A stretch of 64,000 nt of DNA from the NCBI GenBank assembly GCA_965198225.1, contig CBDAOY010000009.1, positions 928,001 to 992,000 on the forward strand. Reading direction: 5' to 3'. A program made the position numbers and the translations under genes. How positions within the stretch are numbered: the stretch's first letter is position 1; the number at the start of each line of letters is the position of its first letter. The notes below the pieces were generated by a model. The model was not told the DNA's origin, did not search any database, and saw only the letters and a program-made list of their open reading frames with translations. Below, piece after piece: positions 5,604 to 61,795 of the stretch. The DNA comes from Terriglobia bacterium (GTDB lineage: Bacteria > Acidobacteriota > Terriglobia > 20CM-2-55-15).

Positions 5604-5754
5604 ACCACGGAGGCACGAAGGCACGGAGCACCTAGAACCGGGGAAAAATAGGTCGTTCCCAGCCTTTCCTGCTCGACGGGACACAGTGGCTCTCGGACGG
5701 ACTTTTTAGCTAAAACCAGACCAAGAAACTCCTTGCCTCTGTGCCTCCGTGGTT
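5604..5754. repeat. Intergenic element bounded by 14-bp inverted repeats (AACCACGGAGGCAC ... GTGCCTCCGTGGTT)
   Basis: Inverted repeat read directly between two convergent genes. Confidence 0.55.
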
Positions 5755-5818
5755 GGGTGTTGGCTGAGCAGAAGGGTCTGGGACCGCCGCTTCTTCCCCC
5801 GTGGTTAGAATCCCCCCG

Positions 5819-8518
5819 CTACTCACACCTCAACGCCGCAACCGGGTCCACCCGCGTCGCCCGGCGCGCGGGCACGTAGCCCGCAACCAGCGCCACGACG
5901 ATCATCGCAAGCGCGACCGAGACAAACGATATCGGGTCGCGACTGCTGACGCCGTAGAGGAAACCTTCCACCAACCGCGTGGCGGCCAGGGCCGCGATCA
6001 ACCCGATTCCGACGCCGATCCCTACTATCCCGGCCGCCTCACCGAGGACGATAGCGAAGACATCCGCCTGCCGCGCGCCGAGCGCCATGCGGATTCCGAT
6101 CTCCCGGGTGCGCCGGGCCATCGAGTACGACATCACCCCGTAGACCCCTACCGAGGCCAGGGCGAGGGCGAGGGCGCCAAACACCGCAATCAGCGCGACC
6201 CCCAGGTGTGCCGGGAACAGGGACGCGCTCATCTGTTCCGACATCGTTCGGACGTTGGCGACGGGAAGATTGGGCTCGATGTTTCTAACCTGCGCCTGGA
6301 TGGGATTGATGAGTGCTGTTGGATCGGTTGATGTGCGGACATGGAGGGTGACACCCGACTCATGGTTCTGAAGCAGCGGGAAATACACGAACGCGGGAAG
6401 GTTTTCAACCAGGCTGACGTACTTCCCGTCGCGGGTGATCCCGATTACCTCTCGCCTCGGTGAGTCGGGGCGGCCTAGCTGGAGGCGCTTTCCGATTGCG
6501 TTCTCTCCCGGCCAGTACCGCGCAGCCATCGCTTCATTGACAATGCACACGAGCGGTGCACCGTCTCCGTCGGTCCGACTGAAATCCCTGCCCGCGAGAA
6601 GCGGCATTCCCATCGTCCGGAAGTAGTTCAACGAAACGACGTTGGCGCCGACGATGTTCGGCGATCCCTGAGGCGGCGGGGTCTGTCCTTCGATCAGGAC
6701 GCTCACCCGGCGTCCGCCTCCGCCGAGCGCCGACACTCGGGCGACGGCCGCCGACTCGACTCCCGGGAGAGCTCCGGTTTCTTCCAGGACGCGATCGTAG
6801 AATGCCCGACCCTGTTGCTCGGAGTACGACACGAGGTTGATACTGAGCGGCATCAGGAGCATGCTGTCGGTTTCGAATCCCGGATCGATGGCCTGCGTTT
6901 TCTGCAGGCTGCGCAGGAACAGGCCCGTCCCGATCAGCAGCAGCACCGAAATGGCCACCTGAGACACAACGAACGCGGACCGAAGCTTCCATCGCCCCAC
7001 GCCGCGTATGACGGGGTTCAAGCTTGTCCGCGCCGCTTCGATGGCCGGCACGAGTCCGAACAGCCCGGCCGTCCCCAGGCAGGCGCCGAGAGTGAACAGC
7101 AGGACTCGTGTGTTCGGGATTGCGTCGAGCGTGATCGTGATCGGCAACAGGTTGATGCGCATGATCGCAGCAACCAGCAGGTTCGTACCCCAGACAGCCA
7201 GCGCGAGCCCTCCGATCCCCCCGAAGAGCGAGAGCAGGAGGCTTTCGGTCAGGAACTGGCGAATCAGGCGGCCGCGCCCCGCGCCCAGTGCGATTCGCGT
7301 CGCAATCTCGACGCGACGAGCCGTCGCCCGTGCCAGCAGCAGGTTCGCGACATTCGCACAGGCGATCAGCAGGACCAGCCCGACGACGACCATCAGAAGC
7401 GTGCCCGCCGGAGCCAGCGCGCTGCGCGCCTGCGGACTGCCGGAATCGGCCGGATAAGGGGTAAAGAGGACTCCCGAGTTCGTGTCCGGGTAGGCATTCT
7501 CCAAGCGGTTTGCCACGACCTGAAGCGATGCCGAAGCCGTTCCCATTCCCCCACCCGGCTTGAGCCGACCGAACATGTTCAGCCAGCGCGCACCCCGTCT
7601 GTCGAGCAGGTTGGCGTCCATGCCCACGGAGAATCCGGCCCGTGGCGGGCGCACCAGTTGCTGCATCATCGTCGGGACCCAGACGTCGGTGTCCTCGGTG
7701 ATGTTCCGTCCCGTGAACCTGGCAGGAGCGACGCCGATCACCGTGAAAAGTTGACCGTTCAGGGTCATCTGGCTTCCGAGCGCCGTGTCGTCTCCGCCGT
7801 AACGTTGATCCCAGAGTCGGTGGCTGATGACCGCAACCGGATGGGTCCCGGGAGTCTGATCTTCTTCCGGAACAAAGAAACGGCCGCCGGCTGGGTCGAG
7901 TCCGAGCAGGGAGAAGTAGTTTCCTGAAACAACCATCCCGGAAAGCGTTTCGGTCTGCTCTCCCGTGTCCCACGTCAGCGTGATCCCGCCGTAGGTTGCG
8001 AACCCGCTGAATGCGTCCACGTTGTCCCGGATGTCGACGTAGTCGGGGTAAGAGGTGCCGCTGTACGGATTCCGTTCGGAGCCGGAGAAGACGGACAGGA
8101 GTTCTTCCGTGTCCCGACCCGGACTCCCGGCGAACAACGTCGCGTCGATCAAAGTGAATATCGCCGTGTTGGCCCCGATGCCTATCGCGAGCGTCAGCAC
8201 GGCCACGGCGGTGAACCCGCGGTTCTGGACCAGCGTGCGGACTCCGTAGCGGACGTCCTGGAATAGTGTCTGCATGAGACCGTCTCCTTTGCGTTTGCGG
8301 GTTCCCGACGTTGGTGTCTCGTTCCTGAAGCTTCTGTAAAGGCTGAGGACGTCTTTGAAGTAGAGCCGACGCGCTTGACGAGCTCCGAGGAGATCGACGC
8401 GCTTCCGGAACAATTCGTCGATATCGCCCTCGATTTCTTCTCTCCAGTCCGGCCGACAGAGCAGTGCCAGAAACCATTTTGCAGCCGCGGGCGGCAGAGC
8501 CGCTTTAAGGTTTCGCAT
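5819..8518 (-). CDS. ABC permease, ADOP/MacB-FtsX duplicated type
   Basis: QDVRYGVRTL, IGANTAIFT, LLIACANVANLLLARA, REIGIRMALGA, VDPVAALRCE. The ATG at 8518 overlaps the PadR stop codon. Confidence 0.93.
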   Translation of the reverse strand: MRNLKAALPPAAAKWFLALLCRPDWREEIEGDIDELFRKRVDLLGARQARRLYFKDVLSLYRSFRNETPTSGTRKRKGDGLMQTLFQDVRYGVRTLVQNRGFTAVAVLTLAIGIGANTAIFTLIDATLFAGSPGRDTEELLSVFSGSERNPYSGTSYPDYVDIRDNVDAFSGFATYGGITLTWDTGEQTETLSGMVVSGNYFSLLGLDPAGGRFFVPEEDQTPGTHPVAVISHRLWDQRYGGDDTALGSQMTLNGQLFTVIGVAPARFTGRNITEDTDVWVPTMMQQLVRPPRAGFSVGMDANLLDRRGARWLNMFGRLKPGGGMGTASASLQVVANRLENAYPDTNSGVLFTPYPADSGSPQARSALAPAGTLLMVVVGLVLLIACANVANLLLARATARRVEIATRIALGAGRGRLIRQFLTESLLLSLFGGIGGLALAVWGTNLLVAAIMRINLLPITITLDAIPNTRVLLFTLGACLGTAGLFGLVPAIEAARTSLNPVIRGVGRWKLRSAFVVSQVAISVLLLIGTGLFLRSLQKTQAIDPGFETDSMLLMPLSINLVSYSEQQGRAFYDRVLEETGALPGVESAAVARVSALGGGGRRVSVLIEGQTPPPQGSPNIVGANVVSLNYFRTMGMPLLAGRDFSRTDGDGAPLVCIVNEAMAARYWPGENAIGKRLQLGRPDSPRREVIGITRDGKYVSLVENLPAFVYFPLLQNHESGVTLHVRTSTDPTALINPIQAQVRNIEPNLPVANVRTMSEQMSASLFPAHLGVALIAVFGALALALASVGVYGVMSYSMARRTREIGIRMALGARQADVFAIVLGEAAGIVGIGVGIGLIAALAATRLVEGFLYGVSSRDPISFVSVALAMIVVALVAGYVPARRATRVDPVAALRCE

Positions 8519-35142: not shown

Positions 35143-35215
<73 letters not shown>

Positions 35216-50017: not shown

Positions 50018-51161
50018 CGCTGAAGTCCACGGTCACGGTCACGCCGCTCAACGAGACGTTGCTTGCCGAGCCCGTGGCCGCGTCCTTGAAATTCTGGACC
50101 TTGATCGTCACCGTCTTCCCGACTCCCTTGATGGTGACGTCCGGGGCCACAGTTTGTTCCTGTTCGACCCGGATGGGAACGATCTGGGTCGGTTTGCCGC
50201 TGCCTTTGACCTGCTGGGCCGCGAAGGTTATGAGGTCCCCGCTGCCCTTACGGGTGCCGCCCCCGTAGTCGAACACGAAGTTTTTACCGAATTTGATCTT
50301 CTCGTAGTAGGCCTGCGGGGTGCTGGTGTAGGTCAGTCGGATCGATGTCACGTTGACCGCATTCGTGCCGAAGTTCGTTACCTTGAACTGGAGATCGTTG
50401 CCCCCCTTGATCTTGGCGGTGCCCTCCTCGTAGGTCAGCTTGGCGTCGATGCTGAGGCTTCGGAAGCCGAACGAAACGTCGTCGAAATCGAAATTGCCGC
50501 TGCCGTCGGTCACGTCGAACCGCTGAGTCACGGCGCCGTCTTCCGGGATGTTCAGTGTCACGGTCGCAAACTTCAGGACCTTCTTTTTCCTCTTGGCCAC
50601 CCCGGTGACTTGAGAGAAGACCTCATCCTTGAGGATATCGACGATCAGGTCGTCGCTGTTGCCCTTTATACCGTCGGGTCCAACGCTCTGGAGTCGGGCG
50701 GCCACTTCCGCGTTGTCTCCGCTCCGGTTGAACGTTGTCGAAGTGTAGACGTAGGCGTTTCCGAACGGATCCTTGTCGAACCCGATCAACCTTTCGACGG
50801 TGGTTTTCGGCACGTAGGGCCCCACCCATCCGGCGCCGACCAGGGTGTTTGTGTCGAAACTGAAGAGCGGGAAGGAGCCTTTCAACCAGAGTTTGGAGAG
50901 CTGGTCCGGGACGTCGCCGACCGTCCCTATGAACCCGAAGTCGGCCCGTCCCTCCGTGATGATCAGGTTGGGATTGCCGGTGATAGCGGTCTTGATCGAC
51001 TCCAGGTCGGATCGGGCTCTCATCGTCCCTTGAGAGACGAAGACCTGGTCGGCAATCGGAGCCGAAATGCCCAGAAGTATGGCCATCATCGCAATCAGTA
51101 CGATGGCTCCGAAGAGTCCCATGCCTCGAATGGTTGCTCGATCTTCCGTGATGGTGGTCAT
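49986..51161 (-). CDS. Large pilin-like protein, cassette position 4 (no E5; GspK/PilX-like leader)
   Basis: RG|MGLFG helix; WVGPY, DPFGN, SVGPDG; carboxypeptidase-like domain; C-terminal FSDGS. Paralog of 57626..58792. Confidence 0.85.
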   Translation of the reverse strand: MTTITEDRATIRGMGLFGAIVLIAMMAILLGISAPIADQVFVSQGTMRARSDLESIKTAITGNPNLIITEGRADFGFIGTVGDVPDQLSKLWLKGSFPLFSFDTNTLVGAGWVGPYVPKTTVERLIGFDKDPFGNAYVYTSTTFNRSGDNAEVAARLQSVGPDGIKGNSDDLIVDILKDEVFSQVTGVAKRKKKVLKFATVTLNIPEDGAVTQRFDVTDGSGNFDFDDVSFGFRSLSIDAKLTYEEGTAKIKGGNDLQFKVTNFGTNAVNVTSIRLTYTSTPQAYYEKIKFGKNFVFDYGGGTRKGSGDLITFAAQQVKGSGKPTQIVPIRVEQEQTVAPDVTIKGVGKTVTIKVQNFKDAATGSASNVSLSGVTVTVDFSDGSSNTFTVP

Positions 51162-52366
51162 GGTTCGGTCTTTGCCGTAAAGAAAGTTACGGAGCCGTCG
51201 CTGAAATCCACGCGGAACGTCACCCCGGTCATGTCCACCGCGGCTCCGTTGCCGGTCTGGACATCGTCAAAATTCTCCAGCTCGATCTTGAGAGTGCCGC
51301 CGCTGCCCACGGTGCTGATCCGGATGTCGGGGATCTGAAAAAACTGTGAAGAAACCAGCGCGTGCAGGGGTTCCTGCGTCACGCCGGTCCCGGCGATGAC
51401 CTCGTTGGAGAAGGTTACCGAATCACCGGACCCTTTCCTGGGACTGTTCGAATTGTAGACCGTTGTCCCGTTCAACCGGACCCTTCTGTAGAAGCCCGGT
51501 GGATCCGAAGTGTAGGTGAGCGTAAACGAGGAGATCGTCGTGGCGTCTTTGCCGAGGTTCTCCACGACGAACTCGACGTCGTCTGCATTGTTGCTCGTGG
51601 CGAAGCCTGTATCGTCCTTGTAAGCAAGAAGCGGCATGACCTCAAAAATCCGGTCTCCATGCGGGACATCCAGGAACTCGAAGAAACCACTCGTGTCGGT
51701 CGCTGTCGTACTGGTAGCCACGGCGCCCGCCGAGGGATAGGACAGCTTGACATCGACTCCGGCCAGGATGTTGCCGTTGCGGCGCACGTACCCGAATACC
51801 CGGGAAAAGGCCTCGCCCTTGTGGATCTCGATCAGGCCGTCATCGGACGTGCCCACGGTGCCGTCGGGACCGGGGACCTTGATCGTGGCGACGATCGGGG
51901 CTCCTGTGAACGCGCTCGTTCCCGCGGTCGTGTCCAATACGACAGCGTTGCCCCACGGGTCTTCGAGCAGATCCATCGGAGCGGTGATCAGGTAGGGACC
52001 GCGCCAGCCGTGACCGAGTTGCGTGATCGATTCGACCACATAATCCGGCAGCGCCCCCACCTCCGCCAGTTGGGTGAGCGAGGAGGGCAGGTTCCCCATG
52101 TCGCCGACAAACCCGAATCGGGTGACGTTGTCCTGCCCGCGCTGGATCTCTCTGGGAGTACCCACGACCGCTCTCTTGAGGCGGACGAGTTGATCGACGA
52201 CCGCCCTGTCGCGGGCGTTGTCGATCGCTGCCGGGACACCGATACTGAAGGTCAGGGCCAGCAGGACCATGATGGCCATGACGAGTGACACTTCGAACAG
52301 CGTCATGCCACGGCAGCTGTCGGCCTGTCGTCGTTCGGCCGCCATACTGTTGCCCGTCACGTTCAT
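51158..52366 (-). CDS. Large pilin-like protein, cassette position 3
   Basis: RG|MTLFE; FGFVGDMG; WRGPY; DPWGN; C-terminal DMTGVTFRVDFSDGS. Paralog of 58789..59982. Confidence 0.87.
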   Translation of the reverse strand: MNVTGNSMAAERRQADSCRGMTLFEVSLVMAIMVLLALTFSIGVPAAIDNARDRAVVDQLVRLKRAVVGTPREIQRGQDNVTRFGFVGDMGNLPSSLTQLAEVGALPDYVVESITQLGHGWRGPYLITAPMDLLEDPWGNAVVLDTTAGTSAFTGAPIVATIKVPGPDGTVGTSDDGLIEIHKGEAFSRVFGYVRRNGNILAGVDVKLSYPSAGAVATSTTATDTSGFFEFLDVPHGDRIFEVMPLLAYKDDTGFATSNNADDVEFVVENLGKDATTISSFTLTYTSDPPGFYRRVRLNGTTVYNSNSPRKGSGDSVTFSNEVIAGTGVTQEPLHALVSSQFFQIPDIRISTVGSGGTLKIELENFDDVQTGNGAAVDMTGVTFRVDFSDGSVTFFTAKTEP

Positions 52367-52370
52367 CGCC

Positions 52371-53572
52371 TTACGGCTCCACCGGTACGACGACGATCAT
52401 CGAGCCGTCGCTGAAAGTGATTTCGAAGATCACGCCGGACATGTCGACGGCGGTCCCCCCGCCTGTCTGCGTGTCGACGAAATTCTGCATCTGGATCTTC
52501 ATGGAGCTTCCTTTTCCGATCTTGCCGATCTGGATGTCCGCCACGTCCGTTATCGGCGATTGAAGTCGGATCGGGAGCGACTCTTCGACCGTGCCGCGCC
52601 CCTTCGCCGTTTTTCCGGAGAAATTCACCGTGTCTCCGGTGCCGAGTCGCGGGTTGCTGGAGTTGTACACCGTCGAACCGTCCACCCGCAGCCGGTTGAA
52701 GTAGGCGGGCGGATCGATCGAATAGTCGAAAGTCATGGAAGTGATCGTGATGTCTTCGGATGCGAAATTCTTGACGAAAAACTCGACGTCGTCGTTGTTC
52801 CCGCCCTTGACCACGGCCGTTCCGGCAGCCAGTACGAGTCGGGGCTCCACCGTCAGCGAGCGGTTTCCGAACGGAATGTCCGCGAAGAAGTAGTAACCCA
52901 GCGAATCGGTCGTGGCGGTCGAGGAAGTCAGAACACCGTTCTGGGCGTAGTTGAGGGTGATATCCATGCCCGGCACCACGTTGCCCTTGTTGTCGCGCAC
53001 GAAACCCTGAACCCTGGAGACGACTTCGGAGTTGAAGAAATTGACGGTGATGTCGTCGCCGTTGCCGAGAGAAAAATCCGGTCCCAGCGATGCCAGCTTT
53101 CCCTTCGCCCCGGCGCCGAACGTGGCATCAGTGAACGGGCTGTTGCTGTAGGAGAGTCCGTTGCCCCAGCCGTCCTTCATCAGGGCCGCCAGCGCCTCGA
53201 TCGTCTCGAGGGTCACATACGGGCCGTTCCAACCCGCGCCGGTCTTCTTCGTGGTGTCGAATGTGAACGCCGGCTGCGTGTCCTTGATCCAGAGGTCGGT
53301 CAGCGTCGCCGGCAGGTTGCCCATGTCGCCGACGTAGCCGAACGCCGTCCGGGTTTCATCGACCACGATCACCGGATCGCCCGACACGGCGCGCTGCAGG
53401 TCGGCCAGCCGATCTACGGTGATGTCGTGCTGAAGCATGTCGAGTGCGTTGCTGGCGACGCAAGGATCGACACGATCGCGAGCGTGGCCACGGCCTCGAC
53501 CAGGCTGAAGCCGGTTTCAATCCGTGCCTCCGTCGGCGAGGTCGACGCCAGCGTCTGGGAGGTCGATCTCAT
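52371..53572 (-). pseudogene. Large pilin-like protein, cassette position 2, frameshifted in the N-terminal helix near 53460
   Basis: ATG at 53572 gives ..ETG|FSLVEAVATLAIVSIL; the body (VASNALDMLQHD..., ORF 52371..53438) is in another frame. Confidence 0.82.
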
Positions 53573-54828
53573 TTCCGCTCCGGAGTGAATATGGCGACGG
53601 AACCGTCCGAAAACGTAACCTCGAACGAGATCCCGGTCATGTCGACGTCGGTGCCCGAGCCGGACTCGACGTCCTTGAAGTTCTGCAGCTTGATGCGCTT
53701 CGTTGCACCGGCCTGCGCGGACTGTCCAATGTTCTGGTCGAGCGCCAGGGTGAAGCCGGACTGGACCCGAACCGGGGATATCAGCCCGCTGTCGGAACCG
53801 GTCCCTTTGATCGTCTTGCTGGAGCTGAAGACGATGGTCTCGCCGCTCGCGGCTCTGTCCGAAGAGTCGTTGAAGACGGTCGAGTTGCCGACCTTGATTT
53901 TTTCGTAGAAAGCCGTCACATCGAATTCGGCCTTCAGGCTCGTGATGATGATGTCGTTGGCCGAGAAATTCTGGATGACGAACTCGACGTCGTTGTTCGA
54001 CCCACCCTTTGTGAAGCCGGTGTCGGCGACGTAGACCAGCGCGGGCTCGACTACCAGGCTGCGGTTGCCGAAAGGAACGTCGGTGAACGTGTACGCGCCG
54101 GACGCATTCGTGGTCGTGCTCGAGACTGCCGGGCTTCCGCCGGAAGGCTTGTTGATTTTGGCGGTCACGCCGGTCAGGGGATTCCCGCTGGCGTCCCGGA
54201 TGTATCCGACCACGGTCGCGAACAGGTCGGTCTCGTAGATTTCGACCGTGAGGTCGTCCCCTCCGCCCAAATCCGCATCCGGTCCGTAGCTGATCAGCCG
54301 GGCCCGGTACGTCTGTCCGGTCGATGAACTGACCCCGGTCTGGACCTCGTATACGATCGAGTTGCCCCATCCGTCGCGTGCGATGTCGGCGAATTGGTCC
54401 GTGGCGGGAACGCCGAAGTACGGACCGGCCCAGCCCGAACCCAACCTCAAGCTGGTGTCGAAGGTGAACAACGGCTGGGCGTTTCGAACCCAGAGCTCTT
54501 CCAGCGAGGTGGGCAGGGAGCCCATGGCCCCGATGAAGCCGAAATCGGTGCGGGATTCCTTCGTGACGATCCGTGGGTTTCCGATGATCGCGTGACGCAG
54601 TGCAGCAAGTCTGCGGCCGGTTTCGCGCTCGCGTTCGGCCTCCACCGGTTGGGAGAGTAGTGTAACCGTGCCGACAGCCACGAGCATCAGGATCCCCAGG
54701 CTGACGGAGACTTCCATCAGCGAGATCCCGCGATCACGTTGCGGACAGAGCGTTCCCAATGCCTCCTCCTTGAGGTTGGTGCCCCGACGATCTTTCCCGC
54801 CGTCGGTACGACCAGTCACGCCGATCAT
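53569..54828 (-). CDS. Large pilin-like protein, cassette position 1 (start uncertain)
   Basis: RG|ISLME; FGFIGAMG; WAGPY; DGWGN; SYGPD; C-terminal FSDGS. Confidence 0.85.
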   Translation of the reverse strand: MIGVTGRTDGGKDRRGTNLKEEALGTLCPQRDRGISLMEVSVSLGILMLVAVGTVTLLSQPVEAERERETGRRLAALRHAIIGNPRIVTKESRTDFGFIGAMGSLPTSLEELWVRNAQPLFTFDTSLRLGSGWAGPYFGVPATDQFADIARDGWGNSIVYEVQTGVSSSTGQTYRARLISYGPDADLGGGDDLTVEIYETDLFATVVGYIRDASGNPLTGVTAKINKPSGGSPAVSSTTTNASGAYTFTDVPFGNRSLVVEPALVYVADTGFTKGGSNNDVEFVIQNFSANDIIITSLKAEFDVTAFYEKIKVGNSTVFNDSSDRAASGETIVFSSSKTIKGTGSDSGLISPVRVQSGFTLALDQNIGQSAQAGATKRIKLQNFKDVESGSGTDVDMTGISFEVTFSDGSVAIFTPERK

Positions 54829-54905
54829 TCGGCGTCATTAGGTTTAAGGATCGGCAACGGACGTCCGAAACTGCAACCAAAAGCGACGAGCCGGCAAACC
54901 AGACA
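54812..54905 (-). promoter_or_regulatory. Conserved 5' leader/promoter element, copy 1
   Basis: Aligns with 56848-56940; contains the hairpin ACGCCGA-ATGA-TCGGCGT. Confidence 0.6.
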
Positions 54906-54980
54906 TCTGGTCAAGACGCTCGGGCGCGCTGGCTTCTCCGGACCCCGGTTTCTCCCTGGGAGCCGTTAGAGGAAATGCAT

Positions 54981-55259
54981 CTACTTGATTCGATAGATGA
55001 TGTCGTCGCCAGCCGGAGCGACAGCGGCTGTCTTGGAAATGTTGAAGCTTGTGTCGACCGTTGAGTCGGGTCCCGCCGAGAGGACGAAGCACGCATCGGC
55101 GCTCCCGCGCTTTGCGTTGATGATATTGACGAGATAACGGTTGCCCCATGGATCCGATCCGGGGTCCATGTATGGGCCGTTCCACTTGAACGGTCTGGCG
55201 GATGCCGTGGTCGTCGGATAGGAGGGAGCGTTTGTCAGAAGCTGCGGATAAGCGGTATA
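54981..55259 (-). pseudogene. 3' half of a small GspG-like pilin, interrupted by a group II intron
   Basis: QLLTNAPSY..WNGPY..DPWGNRY..LSAGPD..GDDIIYRIK; the upstream sequence is intron RNA. Confidence 0.85.
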
Positions 55260-56577
55260 TCGCGCCAAGCAAAGCTTGGGAAAGGGGAATTTGATGTGAG
55301 TCGATGAAACCTTTCGAAAGGAATCCAACTGGTGAAAATCCAGTCCGGCTAAAGCCGTAGCGGGCAGGCCGGTAGCGAGTCTTGCCTGTCGCCGGGTGAT
55401 CGGCGGGAGAGAAGCGTAGACAGCGAGGAAGTGGCGCAGCGAGGCTAGCTGCTGTGCTAGCGGGTGCAAGTCCCGCCGGCGCAATTTCCAGTATGGCGCC
55501 GTAGTTATATCCGGCAGTTATTGGGGTGACCCAATGGCTGGAAGCCCGGAAGTAAAAGCTCTAGACGGGGGAGAGGCGACACCGTATCTGTCCGGATCAG
55601 CACAGGGAGCAAGCAACCCGGAGGGCCGTAGCGAGAGCGAACGAACAAGACGCCGAAATGGCTGTCCCCGCATGAAGCTGATTTGCGGGAACGTTGGAGA
55701 TGCCAAGTGGTTCCCACTTTTTCATGATGGCCAGTGTCGGTATGGAAGAACTGGAGTGAGCACATACCGAATCTCCCGGCGTAGGCTGAAGGCGGCAATC
55801 CTGGAGAGTACAGTAGCGAAAGCCCGGAAGGTCTGGTGACCAGGCAGGAGGGTCCTTGAATGCCAAAGACTATCGCTATAACCGGCACTGCCGGGAAATG
55901 GGATGGAGGCCACCAGACTGGCGGATGGGGTCGCCAAGCGAGGATGGTTGGGACAACATAACCCAACTGGAGCGAGGACCCCAGGGCCCAGGTGAGGTCG
56001 ACCGCGGTCAATGGTCCCACACTCTGAAGTGGAGAATCCAGTTGACCGGGACGGCCCCTAAGGGCGGAGCAAACTGATTCGGCGAACGGTGTATTGTCGG
56101 GACCGGACTTTAGCCGCGAGCGGAGCCAGGAAGGCTTCGTGCCGAACTTACAGGTGCCTGGCGCTTGAAGCCGTACTGGGGAAAACCCGACGTACGGAAT
56201 TTCAGGGAGGGCGGCTGGAAACGTGAGCCATGGCAGAATTAGGAACCCGCTCCACGTATCGAAAGAGTGGAAGTCGGAAACTCTCATGCCTACAGTTGCG
56301 CGCGCCAGTGCTCTACCCGACGGCCGCGAGGATTCAGCTCCGAAATTTATTACGTTGCGGATGCCGAGGCTTTTATATCGGTCGAAGGCCGCATCCGGAC
56401 AGCCGTCATGCGAGGTTGTCGGGAGCCGCCGGAGTCTCTAGCCCGGGGCACGCTTCCACAGGGATTCTCCAGGAACTTGGGAAAGCCTCGCAATCTCCTC
56501 TCGAAGAGGTAGTCGGCGGTCGAGGGCAACCAGAGACTGCGGGCGACGGGTTGAGAGGAATCTTATGAGCCCATAGT
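55260..56577 (+). mobile_element. Outer group II intron, 3'-truncated (domains I-III only), split by a nested intron
   Basis: Domain I-like motifs CTGGTGAAAATCCAG, GAAGCGTAGACAG, TGCCGA..GAAGGC; GGAACTTGGGA at the domain II boundary; TGAGCCCATAGT in domain III. The 5' boundary is approximate. Confidence 0.7.
55434..56321 (+). ncRNA. Complete ORF-less group II intron nested in the outer intron
   Basis: Domain V GAAGCCGTACTGGGGAAAACCCGACGTACGGAATTTC (56167-56203); extended domain VI ending CTCTACCCGAC; no RT ORF. The 5' end lies between 55431 and 55434. Confidence 0.88.
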
Positions 56578-56648
56578 GTGTGCTGAGCAGCGCACCGCTC
56601 AGGAGGGTTGAAGTCCCTCCGGTGATCGGATGAGGGTCACCGTATCGC
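56578..56648 (+). mobile_element. 5' fragment of a third group II intron
   Basis: GTGTG start, CTGAGC..GCTCAG hairpin, then GGAGGGTTGAAGTCCCTCCGGTGA..TCACCGTA; same layout as the 5' end of the nested intron. Confidence 0.62.
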
Positions 56649-56801
56649 TCCAGGTCCGCCTTGGCTGTTTCCGGCTTTCGCCTTCATCAACGACGATGCG
56701 AGCGGGACGAGAAAACCCGCCATGATGCTGACGATGAACAGTGAGGCGACCACTTCCGGCAGAGTGAAGCCGCGGCTTCGGCAACGACCGGAGAGACTCA
56801 T
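56649..56801 (-). pseudogene. 5' fragment of a pilin-like gene
   Basis: MSLSGRCRSRG|FTLPEVVASLFIVSIMAGFLVP, then a frameshift and truncation. Confidence 0.8.
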
Positions 56802-56847
56802 GCGCGTTCTGCGTGGACGATCATTCACCGTCGTCGGTCTCCAAGCC

Positions 56848-56940
56848 GGTCACGCCGATCATTCAGCGTCATGGGTTTAGGATCTGAGAAGGGCGTCGGG
56901 GACTTCAACCTGAAAAGCGTCGAACCGACAAAAACACACA
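56848..56940 (-). promoter_or_regulatory. Conserved 5' leader/promoter element, copy 2
   Basis: Aligns with 54812-54905; hairpin ACGCTGA-ATGA-TCGGCGT. Confidence 0.6.
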
Positions 56941-57023
56941 TCGACCTAAGAATATGGCCTGTTTTTGTTTAGGGGAGAGTCTGACTCTGGGGCGGGGAGG
57001 GGGTTCAACAGCCCTGGGAGAGC

Positions 57024-57629
57024 TTATTTCACTCGCCCGACGATATCGTCGCCGCCGATCGTCACCGCGCCGGCGCCGGATCCGATGTTCTGGTCGAACG
57101 TGGTTTCGATCTGCCCGTTAGGTCCGGCCGAGATGACCATTCCGGCCTTCTGGACCCCGAAGCGGAGGTTCTCGGCGCTGACCAGGTAGGCGTTGCCCCA
57201 GGGATCGTCGCCGAGCTCCTGAACGTAGGGGCCGCGCCACGCAAACCGGCCGGCCGTGCCGTATCCGGGGACGTTGCGGCCGAGAATGTCTTCAAGATCT
57301 CCTCGCTCGTTGAGGGCCGGCAACCATTCGCTGTCGGTAGCCGAGGGAAGGGTTCCCGGGCCGAGCAGGATCTCGTAGTAATCGGAAGATGTGGTGATGC
57401 CGACGCCCGACTTGAAGATCGGCCACTTGCCTGTCGCCTTGTTGAAGTTCCGGATGGCCTGGCCGATGTTCACGACCTCCAGCTCGGCCCGTGTGACGCG
57501 GGCTTCTTCCACCAGTCGGCTCACCATTGGCGTGAGAATCGTGACGAGTATCACCAGGACCGCCAGAACCACAACCACTTCCAGGAGAGTGAACCCGAAT
57601 TCTTGCCTGCCGACGAATCTCATGATCAT
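57024..57629 (-). CDS. Small GspG-like pilin, cassette position 5
   Basis: G|FTLLE; WRGPY; DPWGNAY; ISAGPNG; GGDDIVGRVK. Confidence 0.9.
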   Translation of the reverse strand: MIMRFVGRQEFGFTLLEVVVVLAVLVILVTILTPMVSRLVEEARVTRAELEVVNIGQAIRNFNKATGKWPIFKSGVGITTSSDYYEILLGPGTLPSATDSEWLPALNERGDLEDILGRNVPGYGTAGRFAWRGPYVQELGDDPWGNAYLVSAENLRFGVQKAGMVISAGPNGQIETTFDQNIGSGAGAVTIGGDDIVGRVK

Positions 57630-58792
57630 GGCACCGAAAACGTGTTGACCGAGCCGTCGCTGAAGCCGATCGTAAACGTGACGCCGCTGACCGAGACGCC
57701 GCTCGCGGATCCCGTCGCTGCATCTTTGAAGTCTCGAATCTCGACGACGACGGACTTGCCGACTCCTCGAATCTCGACGTCCGGCGCTGCCGTGACCTCC
57801 TGTTCCACGCGGATCGGGATGACCTGCGTCGGCTTGCCCGTTCCGGCGACCGCCACCGCGGAGAAATTAATCGTCTCGCCGGTGCCCGGCCGGACACTGC
57901 TGTTGTCGGTGACGTAGTCGAAGACCTGCGTGTTTCCGATCTTGACTTCCTCGTAGTAGGACGCCGGCGAAGACGTGTATGTCGCCGTCATCGACGTGAC
58001 GTTGACCGCGTCGGACCCGAAGTTGGCCACCGTAAACTTGAGTCGGGTGCCCTGCAGCTTGGCGGTGCCGTTCTCATAGGTCAGCCGCGGATCGATGGCC
58101 AGGCTGCGAAACCCGAACGAGACATCGGTGAACGTGAAGTCGCCGCTGGCGTCGGTGACCGCGACGCGCTGGTCCACTGCGCCGTCAACCGGTACGTTGA
58201 GGGAGACGGAAGCAAAGGGAACAGTCTGATTGTTCCGCTTCAACGTCCCGTTGACGGTCGAGAAGATTTCTCCCTTGAGAAGGTCGATGGACAGGTCGTC
58301 GTCGGTTCCGCTCGTCCCGTCGGCGCCGAGGCTCGTGATTCGGGCTGCGACAAGGGCGTTATCCGAGGCACGGTTGAACTCGGTTGACGTGTACACAAGC
58401 GGATTTCCGAAGGGATCCAGGTCCAGCGTCAGGAGATCCTCGACGAACGTGTCGGGCGCGTAGGGGCCCACCCACCCGGCACCGACCAGGTCGGTCGTGT
58501 CGAAGACGTAGCCCGCCTGAGCCCCCTTGATCCACAGTTTGTCGAGCGTGACTGGTACGCCTCCCATTGTGCCGATGTAACCGAAATCGGCCCGGCCGCC
58601 TTCAATCACCAGGTTCGGATTACCGGCCATGGCTGTCTTGAGCGCTTCCAGATCCTCGCGAGCCTGCAGCGTTCTCGAAGCATTCGCAACCTGGTTCGCC
58701 ACCGGGACCGAAGCGACGATTAACGCGGTGGTCATCGCCATGAGGACGACGGCCCACAGGATTCCCATTCCCCTGTTTCGCTCCTGATTCAT
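57626..58792 (-). CDS. Large pilin-like protein, cassette position 4
   Basis: RG|MGILW (no E5); WVGPY; DPFGN; C-terminal FSDGS. Confidence 0.87.
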   Translation of the reverse strand: MNQERNRGMGILWAVVLMAMTTALIVASVPVANQVANASRTLQAREDLEALKTAMAGNPNLVIEGGRADFGYIGTMGGVPVTLDKLWIKGAQAGYVFDTTDLVGAGWVGPYAPDTFVEDLLTLDLDPFGNPLVYTSTEFNRASDNALVAARITSLGADGTSGTDDDLSIDLLKGEIFSTVNGTLKRNNQTVPFASVSLNVPVDGAVDQRVAVTDASGDFTFTDVSFGFRSLAIDPRLTYENGTAKLQGTRLKFTVANFGSDAVNVTSMTATYTSSPASYYEEVKIGNTQVFDYVTDNSSVRPGTGETINFSAVAVAGTGKPTQVIPIRVEQEVTAAPDVEIRGVGKSVVVEIRDFKDAATGSASGVSVSGVTFTIGFSDGSVNTFSVP

Positions 58793-59982
58793 GGCATCTG
58801 CCTCGTCGTGAAGAGTGTTGTCGAGCCGTCGCTGAAAACGATCTCGAAGGTCACGCCCGTCATGTCCACGTCGGCTGCTCCACCGCCGGTTGGAGCATCG
58901 GCGAATTCACTCAGTTCGATGTTGAGGGTACCGCCCGTTCCGATCGCGTTGATGCTGATTTCAGGCACCTGGAATGCCAGCGACGAGACCACAAGATGCT
59001 GAGGCTCCTGGATGACGTTGGTCCCGGCGACCAGTTCGGCGGGAAACGTGATGACATCGCCCGAGCCGGCCCTTGGGCTCGTCGAGTTGAACACGAGTGA
59101 GTCGTTGATCCGGACCTGCTCATAGTAAGCCGGCGGACTCGAAGAGTATGTCAACGTGAACGAAGTGACCGTCGTGGAGTCTTTGCCTAGATTCTCGATC
59201 ACGAACTCGACATCGCTGAACTGGACAGTCGTCGTGAATGCCGTGTCCTGCTGGTAGCTGAGCTTGGGATTGACCTCGATCACCCGTTCCCCGTGAGGAA
59301 TGAGACCGAACGAGTAGAAACCATCCGCATCGGTTGCCGTCGTGGTGGTGATGATGCTGCCGGCGTCCGGGTACGATATGACGACGTCGACCCCGGGTAT
59401 GGTGTTCCCGCCGGGGTCGCGGATGTATCCGAACAGGTCTGATTTCGCCTCTCCTTTGTAGATCTCGACGCTCTCGTCGTCCGCGGTGTCGGCGACGCCG
59501 TCACCTCCCAGAGAACGGATCGTCGCGACCACGGTCGAACCCGTGGATGCACTCGTCTTTTGAGTTGTGTCCAACTCCAACGGATTGCCCCAGGGGTCTT
59601 CAAGGAAATCCAGCGGATCGGTGGCGATGTAGGGACCGCGCCAGCCCGACCCGAGTTCGATGATGGACGTGACTTCGTAGGCGGGCTGAGCTCCGATGTC
59701 GATCAGATTTCCGAGAGCGGCCGGAAAGCTTCCCATGTCGCCGACGTAGCCGAAGCGACTGATGTTCCCCTCGCCCAGGCGTATAACGGAAGGCTCACCG
59801 ATCAGCGCTCGCTTGACGCGCATGACCTGTTCCCGGGTCTGCTCCGAGCGGTTTTGCTCCATGGTCAGAGGGACCATGAAGCCGAAGCTGTATGCCAGCA
59901 ATGCCAGAACCGACAGCGCAAGCGTCACCTCCGGAAGGCTGGTGCCCCGGTTGCCTCCGGACGGCTTCGTCGGTTTCCTCAT
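58789..59982 (-). CDS. Large pilin-like protein, cassette position 3
   Basis: RG|TSLPE; FGYVGDMG; WRGPY; DPWGN; DMTGVTFEIVFSDGS. Confidence 0.87.
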   Translation of the reverse strand: MRKPTKPSGGNRGTSLPEVTLALSVLALLAYSFGFMVPLTMEQNRSEQTREQVMRVKRALIGEPSVIRLGEGNISRFGYVGDMGSFPAALGNLIDIGAQPAYEVTSIIELGSGWRGPYIATDPLDFLEDPWGNPLELDTTQKTSASTGSTVVATIRSLGGDGVADTADDESVEIYKGEAKSDLFGYIRDPGGNTIPGVDVVISYPDAGSIITTTTATDADGFYSFGLIPHGERVIEVNPKLSYQQDTAFTTTVQFSDVEFVIENLGKDSTTVTSFTLTYSSSPPAYYEQVRINDSLVFNSTSPRAGSGDVITFPAELVAGTNVIQEPQHLVVSSLAFQVPEISINAIGTGGTLNIELSEFADAPTGGGAADVDMTGVTFEIVFSDGSTTLFTTRQMP

Positions 59983-60345
59983 GGCGTGGGATCCGTCGGC
60001 GTCGCGACGACCACCGACCCGTCACTGAACGTGAGCTCGAAGATCACGCCGGTCATGTCAACCGCGTTGCCGTTGCCGGTTGCCGTGTCTTCGAAGTTCT
60101 GCATCTCGATCGTCAACGAGCTGCCCCGGCCGATGTCGCCGATCACGATATCGTTGACGTCGGTAATCGACGACTGGATGCGGATCGGGAGCGATTCGGC
60201 GACCGCGCCGGTGCCGTCGATGGTTTCGGCCGCAAAGTTTGATGTGTCTCCGGTCGCAAACCGCGGGTTGCTGGAGTTGAAGACCGTCGTGTTGCCGATC
60301 CGGAGCCTTTCGAAGTAGGCCGGCGGCTGGATGTCGAAATCGATG
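59979..60345 (-). pseudogene. 3' remnant of a large pilin-like gene, cassette position 2
   Basis: IDFDIQPPAYFERLRI..SSNPR..DMTGVIFELTFSDGS matches the C-terminal part of 52371..53572. Confidence 0.82.
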
Positions 60346-61795
60346 GTCACCGGCGACACCGTCAACCAGACTTCCCGCATGGCCGGTGTCGGCAAACCGG
60401 ATCAGATCATCATCTCCCGTTCCATGATCGACGTTCTCAGCGAGAACGACAAGTTCATCTGTCGGTTTGTCGGGAAGGCTGATTTTCACGGCAAGACGGG
60501 CACCGTGGAGCTGTTCGAAATCCTCACCGAGAAGCCGGAACTCAAGGAGAAGCAGAAATCAAGGATTGTCTCCGAAAGCGTTCTCGCGGCAGAGGCGGAG
60601 ACGCCAAAGGGTCGGTTGATCGGCGATAAGTACTTCATCGAGAAGCTGATCGGTGAGGGCGCTTACGGTAAGGTTTTCAAGGCCCGCCATGCCGAGTCCA
60701 AGGACATCGTCGCGATCAAGATGCTTCCCGAAGACGCTTACTCGTTCTACAGCCGAGAGGCGCAAGTATTGCGCCAGTTGCAACCTTGCCCCTACATCAT
60801 GAGCATCATCGATGCGTTCGTCGACCAGGAGGGCCTCTGTATCGTCATGCCCTACATCGAGCACGGCAGCCTGCAGACCTACATGAACAAGCTGCACGGC
60901 GATCCACTCGAACCGGGACAGACGATTTCGCTCATGGAAGAGCTCCTGCTCGGCATCTCCCACGCCCATTCGCGGGACGTCATCCACCGGGACGTGAAAC
61001 CCCAGAACATCCTGCTGGGGAACGGAACAGATGGGATCCTGACCGATTTTGGTGTGGCCTATGCCATGGAATCCACCGGGCGAACGACGACGATGACAGC
61101 GGGAACTTCCGGGTATATCGCTCCCGAGGTCACCTCGGGAAGGTTCGACAGCTCGATCGACGTTTACTCCGCCGGCGTCGTCCTCTACAAGATGCTCGGC
61201 GGTGAGTTCCCGGTCGATATGCAGACCCTGCCTCCCTACACCCATCCGGATTTCGTCAAGATCATCGGCCGGTCCATCGCCGATCGCTCCAGGCGCTATT
61301 CGAAACCCGAAGATATGCTGGAGGATCTTCGCTCCATGGGCTCGAAGGTGCTCGGCTCGACGATTCAGTTCCATCGCGCAGTCCGGCGAAGAGCGGGTGC
61401 TGGTGGCCAGTGGGGACTCCAGCTGGGCCGTCCTGGAACCGGCACTGGCCGAGCGCAAGCTGAGCACCATGCGCTGCGGCCTCGACGACCTGCTCAAGCA
61501 GATACACTGGCACATTCCCGCCGTAACGGTTCTCGACTTCACGCTGCTCGCCATGTCGATGTCCAGCGTTCCCGACCAGGTTCACGCGTGCAGTGCGCTC
61601 GGCACGAAGGTCGTCGTCATCAACTGTGGGTCCATCGACGAGGCTTGGGGAATGCTCAAGGCCGGGGCCTCGGATTGTACGCCGTCGCTCGAGGCTCCGC
61701 AGGCGATCGAGGCGTTGACAATGTCCGTTGATACGCTCATCACACAGATACAGCTGGGTGGCGGAAAGTCCTGGTGGAAAAGGATTATCAGCTAG
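60346..61795 (+). pseudogene. 5'-truncated adenylate/guanylate cyclase - Ser/Thr kinase - receiver-like multidomain gene, frameshifted near 61370
   Basis: GDTVNQTSR cyclase motif; kinase motifs GEGAYG, VAIK, HRDVKPQN, DFG, APE; REC-like tail in ORF 61202..61795. Confidence 0.8.

What the first reader, a model, noticed from the sequence alone, without database searches (positions are those of the whole stretch)
55260..56648. Nested group II introns: an ORF-less intron and a third intron's 5' end inside an outer intron
Seen: a complete ribozyme of about 890 nt (domain V at 56167-56203, domain VI ending ACCCGAC at 56321) with no RT ORF. Removing it rejoins ...GAAGCGTAGACAGCGAGGAAGTG|GGCCGCGAGGATTCAGCTCCGAAAT..., a continuous domain-I-like stretch of a second intron. 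That outer intron continues to a domain III motif (GAGCCCATAGT), where a new GTGTG-hairpin intron start appears at 56578. A candidate EBS1, CACTTT (55715-55720), pairs with the 5' flank GAAGTG, and the preceding C could pair with the first G of the 3' flank. Known: twintrons and ORF-less group II introns exist in bacteria, but triple nesting is uncommon. Inference: non-autonomous introns that target conserved motifs of other introns and are mobilised in trans. All three lie antisense to the pilin operon, so splicing cannot restore it.
Basis: partly seen in the sequence, partly recalled or inferred. Interest (0 to 1): 0.78.

Follow-up and report, generated by a model that had tools for sequence, protein, structure and literature searches.

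The report
Nested group II introns, ORF-less inner
This stretch is the decayed remains of self-splicing group II introns inserted into one another, and the intact inner one belongs to a widespread protein-less intron family that often lives inside other introns.

Summary
On the + strand, 55262-55433 and 56322-56575 are two halves of one group II intron domain I (Rfam RF02005, two half-matches). They are split exactly at 55433|55434 by a complete 888-nt intron with no protein gene (55434-56321).

The inner intron's EBS1, EBS2 and EBS3 pair with its own flanks. EBS1 and EBS3 covary with the flanks across 24 relatives from other genomes. Contigs from public runs bridge the junctions, and two carry the empty site, skipping exactly 888 nt.

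A third intron's 5' stub starts at 56576, not 56578. It belongs to a family with 15 more copies in this genome, each placed after '...ATA'.

- The outer and third introns are dead fragments.
- The locus carries a deletion that fuses pieces of two different pseudopilin genes.
- The 3'-exon contact is an EBS3 at 55786, not the base next to EBS1.

[quoted passage not shown] What is less ordinary is the inner family. In a capped scan its domain V motif was found in many phyla. It is missed by RF00029. None of 114 sites has a reverse transcriptase upstream, and at least 16 of 30 loci lie inside other introns.

The parts
54981..55261 (-). 3' fragment of a GspG-like pseudopilin gene ('pilB' type). 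Its similarity to the G002 protein ends at 55244. 55245-55261 is of uncertain origin.
   Evidence: Pfam T2SSG, E 1.3e-4. 79% identical to aa 127-213 of a 213-aa G002 protein. Aa 1-126 have no close match in G000.
55262..55433 (+). Outer intron, 5' part of domain I. It starts GCGCCAAGCAAAGCTTGG.
   Evidence: RF02005 model 1 to about 92. The same 5' end, preceded by TATC or TATT, occurs in the L092 and L056 hosts.
55419..55424 (+). IBS2 (GACAGC) of the inner intron, within the outer intron
   Evidence: 6 bp with EBS2 at 55661-55666.
55428..55433 (+). IBS1 (GAAGTG) of the inner intron
   Evidence: 6 pairs with EBS1 at 55715-55720.
55434..56321 (+). Inner intron: complete, ORF-less, 888 nt, of the RF02003 (D1D4-4) type, with IIB-like exon recognition
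   Evidence: Full-length homologs: L092 80%, L056 and L128 75%. RNAalifold gives 178 pairs, 107 with compensatory changes. No Pfam family in its ORFs. Empty-site joint in X1.
55661..55666 (+). EBS2 (GCTGTC)
   Evidence: Lies in the loop after CGAAA. Reading the table by eye, most of the 25 relatives listed there with a 5' flank have a 5-9 nt complement in this loop.
55715..55720 (+). EBS1 (CACTTT)
   Evidence: Mean 5.88 of 6 pairs with each element's own 5' exon in 24 elements. With shuffled exons the mean is 3.25 +/- 0.23 and the maximum 3.96 in 500 shuffles.
55786..55786 (+). EBS3 (C), pairing with IBS3 G at 56322
   Evidence: The aligned column is Watson-Crick with the first 3'-exon base in 20 of 24. 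The three subfamily members each have C one column to the right and G at +1 (the shift was read by eye).
56169..56199 (+). Domain V of the inner intron: AGC triad, AC bulge, GAAAA loop. The G of the triad faces two A's instead of a U.
   Evidence: Not matched by RF00029.
56204..56321 (+). Extended domain VI with a bulged A at 56315. The intron ends ...CTACCCGAC.
   Evidence: The base helix covaries, for example GC 13 / AU 11.
56322..56575 (+). Outer intron, continuation of domain I. It ends ...GAGCCCATA. The rest of the intron (EBS1 region, RT ORF, domains V and VI) is missing.
   Evidence: RF02005 model about 93-225 on 56322-56444. The L092 host aligns up to CCCATA and then continues. A contig of X18 reads on past 56577 into outer-type sequence.
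56576..56618 (+). 5' stub (about 43 nt) of a third intron, GTGTGTGCTGAGC...GGGTTGAAGTCCC
   Evidence: Aligns to positions 1-42 of the nested element at C8. 15 other copies of this 5' end occur in G000, all after ...ATA.
56640..56685 (-). Inverted fragment of a third-family intron (its positions 138-185)
   Evidence: 39-nt matches of 85-92% identity to 17 places in the genome.
56677..56828 (-). 5' fragment of a different, large pseudopilin gene ('pilA' type)
   Evidence: Pfam N_methyl, E 2.3e-6. 92% DNA identity to the start of a 466-aa G002 gene. Aa 53-466 have no close match in G000.

Best explanation
Window 55262-56685 is a decayed nest of group II introns. It lies antisense to a pseudopilin operon, at the junction of a deletion.

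Proposed history:
1. An RT-encoding intron of the RF02005 type (the outer) inserted into a GspG-like gene.
2. An 888-nt ORF-less, IIB-like intron of the RF02003 type (the inner) then reverse-spliced into the outer's domain I. Its EBS2, EBS1 and EBS3 recognised GACAGC, GAAGTG and G.
3. A member of a third, multi-copy ORF-less family inserted after ...CCCATA further along domain I.
4. Later rearrangement removed most of the third intron, the outer's 3' part with its RT gene and domains V and VI, and the DNA between two pseudopilin genes. An inverted intron fragment was left at the joint.

Only the inner intron is still complete. Having no RT, it must have been copied into DNA by an RT supplied in trans, either from its host intron or from one of the intact RT-encoding introns in the genome.

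Shown: the identities, the boundaries, the target pairing, the empty sites and the deletion. Inferred: the order of events, the helper RT, and whether the inner intron still splices.
For: Outer intron:
- Two RF02005 half-matches cover complementary halves of the model.
- The rejoined form is 79% identical (331 of 420) to an uninterrupted relative that encodes an RT.

Inner intron:
- Full-length homologs of 75-80% identity in other genomes.
- EBS1 gives 5.88 of 6 pairs against 3.25 +/- 0.23 for shuffled exons, n = 24.
- EBS2 forms 6 bp with the flank.
- EBS3 pairs in 20 of 24, or 23 of 24 after a 1-column shift for the subfamily.
- The consensus structure has 178 pairs, 107 with compensatory changes, and a bulged A in domain VI.
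- It departs uniquely from the family at 14 of 369 conserved columns, fewer than its two full-length relatives (23 and 28).

Empty sites and assembly:
- X1 contigs join 55433 to 56322 (2 contigs, 26 letters on the shorter side).
- X3 and X5 contigs bridge 55433|55434, and an X3 contig bridges 56321|56322.
- An X1 contig covers 56517-57000 with no differences.

Third family: 16 matches in G000 including this one, behind 6 different flanks that all end ATA.

Deletion: the G002 orthologous pieces lie 12.8 kb apart, and the missing parts have no close match in G000.

Candidate helper RTs: 31 GIIM matches in G000, including six identical copies of an RT 42% identical to the L092 host RT.
Against: - The window's inner copy reaches no Rfam threshold itself. 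There is no RF00029 match at E<=5 and no RF02003 match listed. Its homologs score 57.7-104 bits on RF02003.
- Its 5' end is GCGCA, not GUGYG. Its domain V lacks the usual G-U pair at the triad. Catalytic competence is therefore untested.
- The X1 empty-site joint has only 26 letters on its shorter side, was laid at 90% likeness, and comes from a community sample. It may belong to a relative rather than to this organism.
- The best DNA holders may include the window's own source sample, so the bridging contigs may not be independent.
- No RNA from this organism was examined.
- The second genomic copy (C6:838140-838377, 96%) carries the same outer|inner junction. At least one duplication therefore happened as a composite, not by separate homing.
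Confidence: 0.9

Rival explanations
1. The whole region is inert debris. The inner intron is also dead: its GCGCA 5' end and its unusual domain V base are inactivating changes, so nothing here splices or moves any more.
For: - Only one full copy and one IS-truncated copy exist in G000.
- Both outer-type target sites in the genome are already occupied.
- The 5' end is non-canonical.
- There is no RF00029 match.
- The element lies antisense to the operon, with no shown promoter.
Against: - The GCGCA or ACGCA end is shared with L056, L128 and L092, each of which sits at a different site that matches its own EBS1. The trait therefore predates successful insertions.
- The domain V form is shared by 70 unique flanked sequences, with a covarying pair next to it (66 of 70 paired, 4 pair types).
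- The window copy has fewer unique departures from the family than its relatives.
- A 702-nt contig 96% identical to 55492-56192 occurs in an RNA library, although DNA carry-over is possible.
Confidence: 0.4
2. There is no nesting. 55262-56575 is one unusual intron with a large expansion segment inside domain I.
For: A second copy in the genome carries the same junction.
Against: - The insert has its own 5' end, EBS1/2/3, domain V, domain VI and 3' end.
- Relatives of the insert lie at many unrelated sites.
- Relatives of the outer lack the insert.
Confidence: 0.02
3. The arrangement is an assembly chimera of repeated intron sequences.
For: The genome holds dozens of intron copies. Depth over the inner part in community runs is very uneven.
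Against: - Contigs from three runs with different study codes bridge the junctions with 0-2 differences.
- The same outer|inner junction exists at C6.
- EBS/IBS complementarity across the junctions would not arise from a chimera.
Confidence: 0.02
4. The + strand RNA is kept as an antisense regulator of the pseudopilin operon rather than being mere intron remains.
For: It lies antisense within the operon and is highly structured.
Against: - The flanking genes are broken fragments.
- G002, a genome of the same genus, has 12.8 kb between the two gene pieces where the window has this 1.4-kb insert.
- Every feature is explained as intron sequence.
Confidence: 0.03

Closest known systems
Thermosynechococcus elongatus twintrons: ORF-less TeI3 introns inside TeI4 introns, mobilised by 'driver' IEPs (Mohr et al. 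2010, PMC2882425; passages read)
   Same: ORF-less introns with good EBS/IBS pairing insert at a conserved site of another mobile group II intron. Near-identical inner copies sit in diverged outer introns, as the third family does here. An RT supplied in trans is needed.
   Different: There the ORF-less introns are recent deletion derivatives of the RT-encoding introns of the same genome and keep ORF remnants. Here the inner family belongs to a different RNA type from its host (RF02003 against RF02005). It has no RT next to any of 114 sites sampled across phyla, and it uses several different sites within host introns.
Methanosarcina acetivorans nested intron arrays (Dai & Zimmerly 2003). The paper is not held. 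It is known here only through passages of PMC4424553 and PMC2882425.
   Same: Repeated homing of introns into other introns, up to five deep, balanced by deletions. There are no intact coding exons around them.
   Different: Archaeal, and described as homing into related intron ORFs. Here most insertions are into ribozyme parts (domain I, domain V, the V-VI linker, the 5' end). One relative, L090, lies in an RT ORF by my reading.
Rfam RF02003 (group-II-D1D4-4) and RF02005 (group-II-D1D4-6)
   Same: The outer intron matches RF02005. 28 of the 30 loci of the inner family show an RF02003 match on the element, at 57.7-104 bits. In L078 an RF02005 match is the one listed there, and in L140 the listed RF02003 range misses my element coordinates.
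   Different: These models cover only part of domains I-IV and say nothing about ORF content, nesting or domain V. The window's inner copy itself is not listed.
HYER ribozymes, described as ORF-less class IIC introns (seen only as described in PMC11754743)
   Same: Compact bacterial group II RNAs without a protein gene.
   Different: In that paper's words, HYERs are class IIC with a recognition capacity of 7 bp. The family here has EBS1, EBS2 and EBS3 and is 789-888 nt long.
Trichodesmium group II twintron (Pfreundt & Hess 2015, PMC4649490; search listing and start of the abstract only)
   Same: A bacterial intron-in-intron arrangement.
   Different: By its title it is spliced sequentially. 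Here the outer intron is truncated and cannot splice.

Membership tests
Group II intron (inner, 55434-56321) | 5' terminus GUGYG | tested here: not met
   The window has GCGCA. The wider family has GUGCA. The closest relatives have GCGCA (L056, L128) and ACGCA (L092). The consensus GUGYG is recalled, not taken from a call.
Group II intron (inner, 55434-56321) | Domain V: a hairpin of about 34 nt with an AGC triad, a 2-nt bulge and a GNRA-type loop | tested here: inconclusive
   The AGC triad, the AC bulge and a GAAAA loop are present. The G of the triad faces AA rather than U. RF00029 gives no match at E<=5.
Group II intron (inner, 55434-56321) | Domain VI with a bulged branch-point A 7-8 nt from a 3' end ...AY | tested here: met
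   A at 56315 is unpaired, 7 nt from the end ...GAC. The flanking helix covaries in 25 sequences.
Group II intron (inner, 55434-56321) | EBS1-IBS1, EBS2-IBS2 and EBS3-IBS3 pairing with the flanking exons | tested here: met
   6, 6 and 1 pairs in the window. EBS1 and EBS3 covary across 24 relatives.
Group II intron (inner, 55434-56321) | Domains I-IV recognisable by a curated model | tested here: inconclusive
   28 of 30 related loci show an RF02003 match on the element, at 57.7-104 bits. The window copy is not listed, but it is 75-80% identical to three elements that match.
Group II intron (inner, 55434-56321) | Intron-encoded reverse transcriptase in domain IV | tested here: not met
   0 Pfam families in its ORFs. 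0 of 114 family sites have an RT match within 600 nt upstream. It is therefore the ORF-less form.
Group II intron (outer, 55262-55433 + 56322-56575) | Complete six-domain ribozyme | tested here: not met
   Only domain I sequence is present: RF02005 in two halves. There is no domain V or VI downstream. The relative L092 continues into an RT ORF.
Twintron (intron within intron) | The inner intron interrupts the outer ribozyme, and an uninterrupted outer form exists | tested here: met
   Half-matches to one model, an uninterrupted relative and the 888-nt skipping joint.
Twintron (intron within intron) | Sequential splicing: the inner is removed first, then the outer | not testable with these tools
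   The outer lacks its catalytic domains, and no RNA of this organism was examined.

The most novel reading that the evidence does not exclude
[quoted passage not shown] Its catalytic domain V base is altered: the G of the AGC triad lies opposite two A's. Its 5' ends are not GUGYG. Its members live largely as parasites inside other group II introns and borrow an RT.

RT-based surveys and the Rfam domain V/VI model both miss this lineage. If it has not been described, ORF-less introns in bacteria would be far more common than the literature I read assumes.
Probability: 0.35. Interest if true: 0.65.

Novelty: new variant of a known kind. Interest (0 to 1): 0.5.

Why it matters
The locus itself matters little. 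[quoted passage not shown]

The family behind the inner intron is worth a specialist's look. [quoted passage not shown] This family fits that exception:
- None of 114 sites has an RT upstream.
- None of the elements' domain V regions reaches RF00029.
- Exon-binding sites covary with the flanks, which shows real mobility.
- At least 16 of 30 loci sit inside other introns.

If this holds up, it gives a natural system for studying how non-autonomous ribozymes exploit autonomous ones. It would also supply compact, programmable IIB-type ribozymes with three guide segments.

Tried and rejected
Steps that gave nothing or were dropped:
- RF00029 was sought around the finding at E<=5. Nothing was found.
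- Other inner copies were sought in G000. Only the IS-truncated C6 copy exists.
- I first read window 56647-56685 as possible homing-site mimicry or as pilin coding sequence. I dropped this once it aligned, inverted, to positions 138-185 of the third family and once pilin similarity to G002 was seen to end at 56677.
- I first took the outer 5' end for a damaged GTGCG. I revised this after two other genomes showed the same GCGCC start behind TATC or TATT.
- An EBS1 for the outer was sought in the retained part. No consistent site was found. Candidates in two full-length relatives lie beyond 56575.
- A circularly permuted intron was considered for the multi-copy loci where a domain V match lies 16 nt upstream of an RF02005 match. 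It more likely reflects one intron inserted in the V-VI linker of another. This was not followed to the end.
- In one search, runs with small shares and stretches without cover were not used as evidence.

Literature:
- Five full-text searches found no description of this ORF-less family. That is not proof that none exists.
- Simon et al. 2008 and Dai & Zimmerly 2003 are not held.
- Supplementary files were not consulted. Those of PMC8919778 may list ORF-less introns of these phyla.

Rows dropped:
- One search used 30 non-identical elements out of 37 placements. Two with a 5'-end-to-domain-V distance over 800 nt and the duplicates were left out.
- One search dropped L110, L107, L062 and L079, which had no recognisable 3' end within the sequence held.
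- One search also dropped L118 (5' flank too short) and L103 (3' end mis-assigned), leaving n = 24.
- One search used 25 sequences, without L103.
Full report
**What is at the coordinates**

Rfam's RF02005 (group-II-D1D4-6) matches the + strand twice, at 55335-55474 (60.8 bits) and 56278-56444 (62.7 bits); the gathering score is 49. The printed alignments show that the first match uses model positions 1 to about 92 on 55335-55430. The second uses positions about 93-225 on 56322-56444. No RF00029 (domain V/VI) match exists in 53500-58500, even at E<=5.

The genome G000 is rich in introns. It has 32 RF00029 matches (24 over the cut-off), 23 RF02005 matches (16 over the cut-off) and 31 GIIM maturase matches.

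**The inner element is a real, complete, ORF-less group II intron**

- It folds better than shuffles: -361.1 against -337.1 +/- 4.65 kcal/mol, with 0 of 20 shuffles as good.
- All four ORFs tested that lie in or overlap it gave no Pfam family.
- A search of 40 related genomes found matches in 7, G000 included. One of these is a 174-nt 3' fragment in a genome of the same genus, 97% identical, that stops two bases after ...CCCGAC.
They come from Acidobacteriota, Planctomycetota, Verrucomicrobiota, Pseudomonadota, Nitrospirota and others.
- Among these are full-length homologs: L092 at 80% over positions 2-888, and L056 and L128 at 75% over 1-888. There are 37 placements in which the family 5' end lies upstream of the domain V motif. 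In 35 of them the distance is 691-738 nt, which is too short for an RT gene.
- tblastn with nine RT proteins of G000 found an RT ending within 600 nt upstream of 0 of 114 motif sites. For 69 of those sites at least 1500 nt of upstream sequence was available.

**Exon-binding sites**

The mean is 5.88 of 6 pairs (n = 24). With exons shuffled among elements the mean is 3.25 +/- 0.23, and the maximum in 500 shuffles is 3.96.

The loop after a conserved CGAAA holds an EBS2. In the window, GCUGUC (55661-55666) pairs with GACAGC (55419-55424). Most relatives have a 5-9 nt complement to their own exon in the same loop.

One column is Watson-Crick with the first 3'-exon base in 20 of 24 elements. The window, L092 and L128 each have a C one column to the right and a G at +1. 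The window's EBS3 is therefore C 55786, pairing with G 56322 (the shift was read by eye).

This pattern is IIB-like target recognition. It shows that the element arrived by reverse splicing exactly between 55433 and 55434.

**Structure**

RNAalifold on 25 full-length members gives 178 pairs, 107 of them with at least one compensatory double change. The structure includes a domain V hairpin and a domain VI whose base helix covaries and leaves one A unpaired. In the window that A is at 56315, 7 nt from the end.

Two features are unusual.
- The 5' end is GUGCA in the family. It is GCGCA or ACGCA in the window's subfamily.
- In domain V the A and the C of the AGC triad pair normally, but the G faces two A's. 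The next pair outward covaries: 66 of 70 unique sequences are paired, with four pair types.

None of the family's domain V regions is reported by RF00029 in the 30 loci scanned. An RF02003 match lies on the element in 28 of them, at 57.7-104 bits; in L078 an RF02005 match is listed instead, and in L140 the listed range misses my element coordinates. The window copy departs uniquely from well-conserved family columns at 14 of 369. L092 does so at 23 and L128 at 28, so the window copy shows no extra decay.

**The family lives in other introns**

A same-strand RF02005 match lies beside the element in 12 of the 30 loci (L042, L140, L098, L096, L051, L118, L137, L090, L057, L128, L092, L056). By eye, four more (L132, L103, L121, L074) are flanked by a host domain V 3' strand and a host domain VI.

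The insertion sites differ: the host 5' hairpin, domain I, the domain V 5' strand, the V-VI linker and, in L090, apparently the RT ORF. The three closest relatives of the window's copy all sit in RF02005-type hosts, at three different sites.

**The outer intron**

The computed rejoined outer is 79% identical (331 of 420) to the host intron of L092. The alignment runs straight through the join. That host goes on to encode an RT.

The outer starts GCGCCAAGC at 55262. The same start, preceded by TATC or TATT, is seen in L092 and L056, so this is a natural end rather than damage. In those two relatives a hexamer fully complementary to the 5' exon lies about 440 nt in, beyond the point where the window's copy stops. 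The retained piece is therefore probably only domain I, not domains I-III.

A second copy of the outer|inner junction lies at C6:838140-838377. It is 96% identical to window 55327-55564, is 5'-truncated, and is cut by an IS at the position equivalent to 55564.

**The third intron**

Window 56576-56618 aligns with positions 1-42 of an element nested in an RF02005-type intron on contig C8. The same 5' end occurs at 15 other places in G000 with nearly identical sequence. It lies behind six different upstream flanks, all ending ATA. This marks an independently mobile family that homes to a conserved host site.

In the window only the stub remains. After about 20 nt of unassigned sequence, 56640-56685 is the reverse complement of positions 138-185 of the same family.

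**Flanks and deletion**

The minus-strand ORF fragment 56637..56828 carries the N-terminal methylation motif. Over 56677-56811 it is 92% identical to the start of a 466-aa pseudopilin gene of G002, a genome of the same genus. The fragment ending at 54981 is a T2SS-G C-terminus, 79% identical to aa 127-213 of a different, 213-aa G002 protein.

In G002 the two pieces lie 12.8 kb apart. The missing parts have no close match anywhere in G000. The locus is thus a deletion junction filled with intron remains, not one gene with a simple insertion.

**Independent sequence support**

Contigs from runs under three different study codes carry the locus.
- X3 and X5 contigs bridge 55433|55434.
- An X3 contig bridges 56321|56322 with no differences.
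- An X1 contig covers 56517-57000 with no differences.
- X1 also has two contigs that join 55433 to 56322, skipping 888 nt. This is the empty outer site. It has only 26 letters on the shorter side and may come from a relative.
- In an RNA library (X18) a 702-nt contig is 96% identical to 55492-56192. Another contig follows the outer to 56577 and then continues with outer-type sequence instead of the third intron.
- The best holders may include the window's own source sample.

**Comparison with what is known**

ORF-less introns that home into other introns and rely on 'driver' RTs are described for Thermosynechococcus (PMC2882425, passages). Multi-level nests balanced by deletions are described for Methanosarcina (through PMC4424553, passages).

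The arrangement here is another case of that kind. It differs in several ways: the inner family's breadth across phyla, the absence of an RT at all sampled sites, its altered domain V base and 5' end, and its invisibility to RF00029. The 2015 review expected few overlooked ORF-less introns unless their domain V were unusual. My five literature searches found no description of this family, which does not prove that none exists.

**Verdict**

- The locus itself is ordinary debris in an intron-rich genome.
- The inner intron's family is the part that deserves follow-up.

Noticed in passing
G000 contigs C4, C5, C6 (e.g. C5:812104-813041; loci L005-L010): Multi-level nests are common in this genome. 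The domain V of an RT-encoding RF02003-type intron is followed after 3 nt by the 5' end (GAGCG...) of a multi-copy RF02005-type intron. That intron in turn carries the third-family element about 130 nt after its RF02005 match.
   Followed up: partly
G000, 15 places listed (e.g. C8:903489, C6:840158, C5:812863): The third family has near-identical 5' ends behind six different host flanks ending ATA, which suggests recent activity. By my reading, the C8 copy is about 1030 nt long with a canonical-looking domain V, yet RF00029 does not report it at E<=0.01.
   Followed up: partly
window 56322 joined back to 55436, in contigs of runs X1 and X3 (table 5c): These contigs join the inner family's 3' end directly to a 5' end, with one letter (T or A) between, which reads ...CCCGAC|G(T/A)GCAG. 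This could mean head-to-tail tandem copies or circle-derived junctions in relatives.
   Followed up: no
L002 (G000:C6:836640-839877), minus strand about 1500-130: An insertion sequence with a transposase-like ORF (by its look; no family search was run) cuts the second outer|inner copy at the position equivalent to window 55564. Nothing intron-like follows it.
   Followed up: partly
window 55262 and 55434; L092, L056, L128: Both the outer-type intron (GCGCC) and the inner subfamily (GCGCA or ACGCA) lack the U at position 2 in three different genomes. In L092 the first base A and its RNAalifold partner U change together (alignment columns 1 and 689).
   Followed up: partly
L090 (about 5699-6514, minus strand): A family member appears to lie inside the RT reading frame of its host intron. 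The 3' flank translates to ...FHLELHPEKTRLLEF by my reading.
   Followed up: no
window 51158-60395, minus strand: A tandem array of paralogous pseudopilin genes: proteins of about 200 aa of the GspG type and of 355-419 aa with an N-terminal prepilin-like helix. A conserved upstream segment is repeated at 54786-54865 and 56816-56897 (77% identity).
   Followed up: no
window 56619-56639: About 20 nt of unassigned sequence lies between the third-intron stub and the inverted fragment. In the RNA fold, 56621-56641 forms a small hairpin (GGTGATC...GGTCACC). The origin of this junction is unexplained.
   Followed up: no
window 35143-35215, minus strand: A tRNA gene (RF00005, 73.6 bits), unrelated to the finding.
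   Followed up: no
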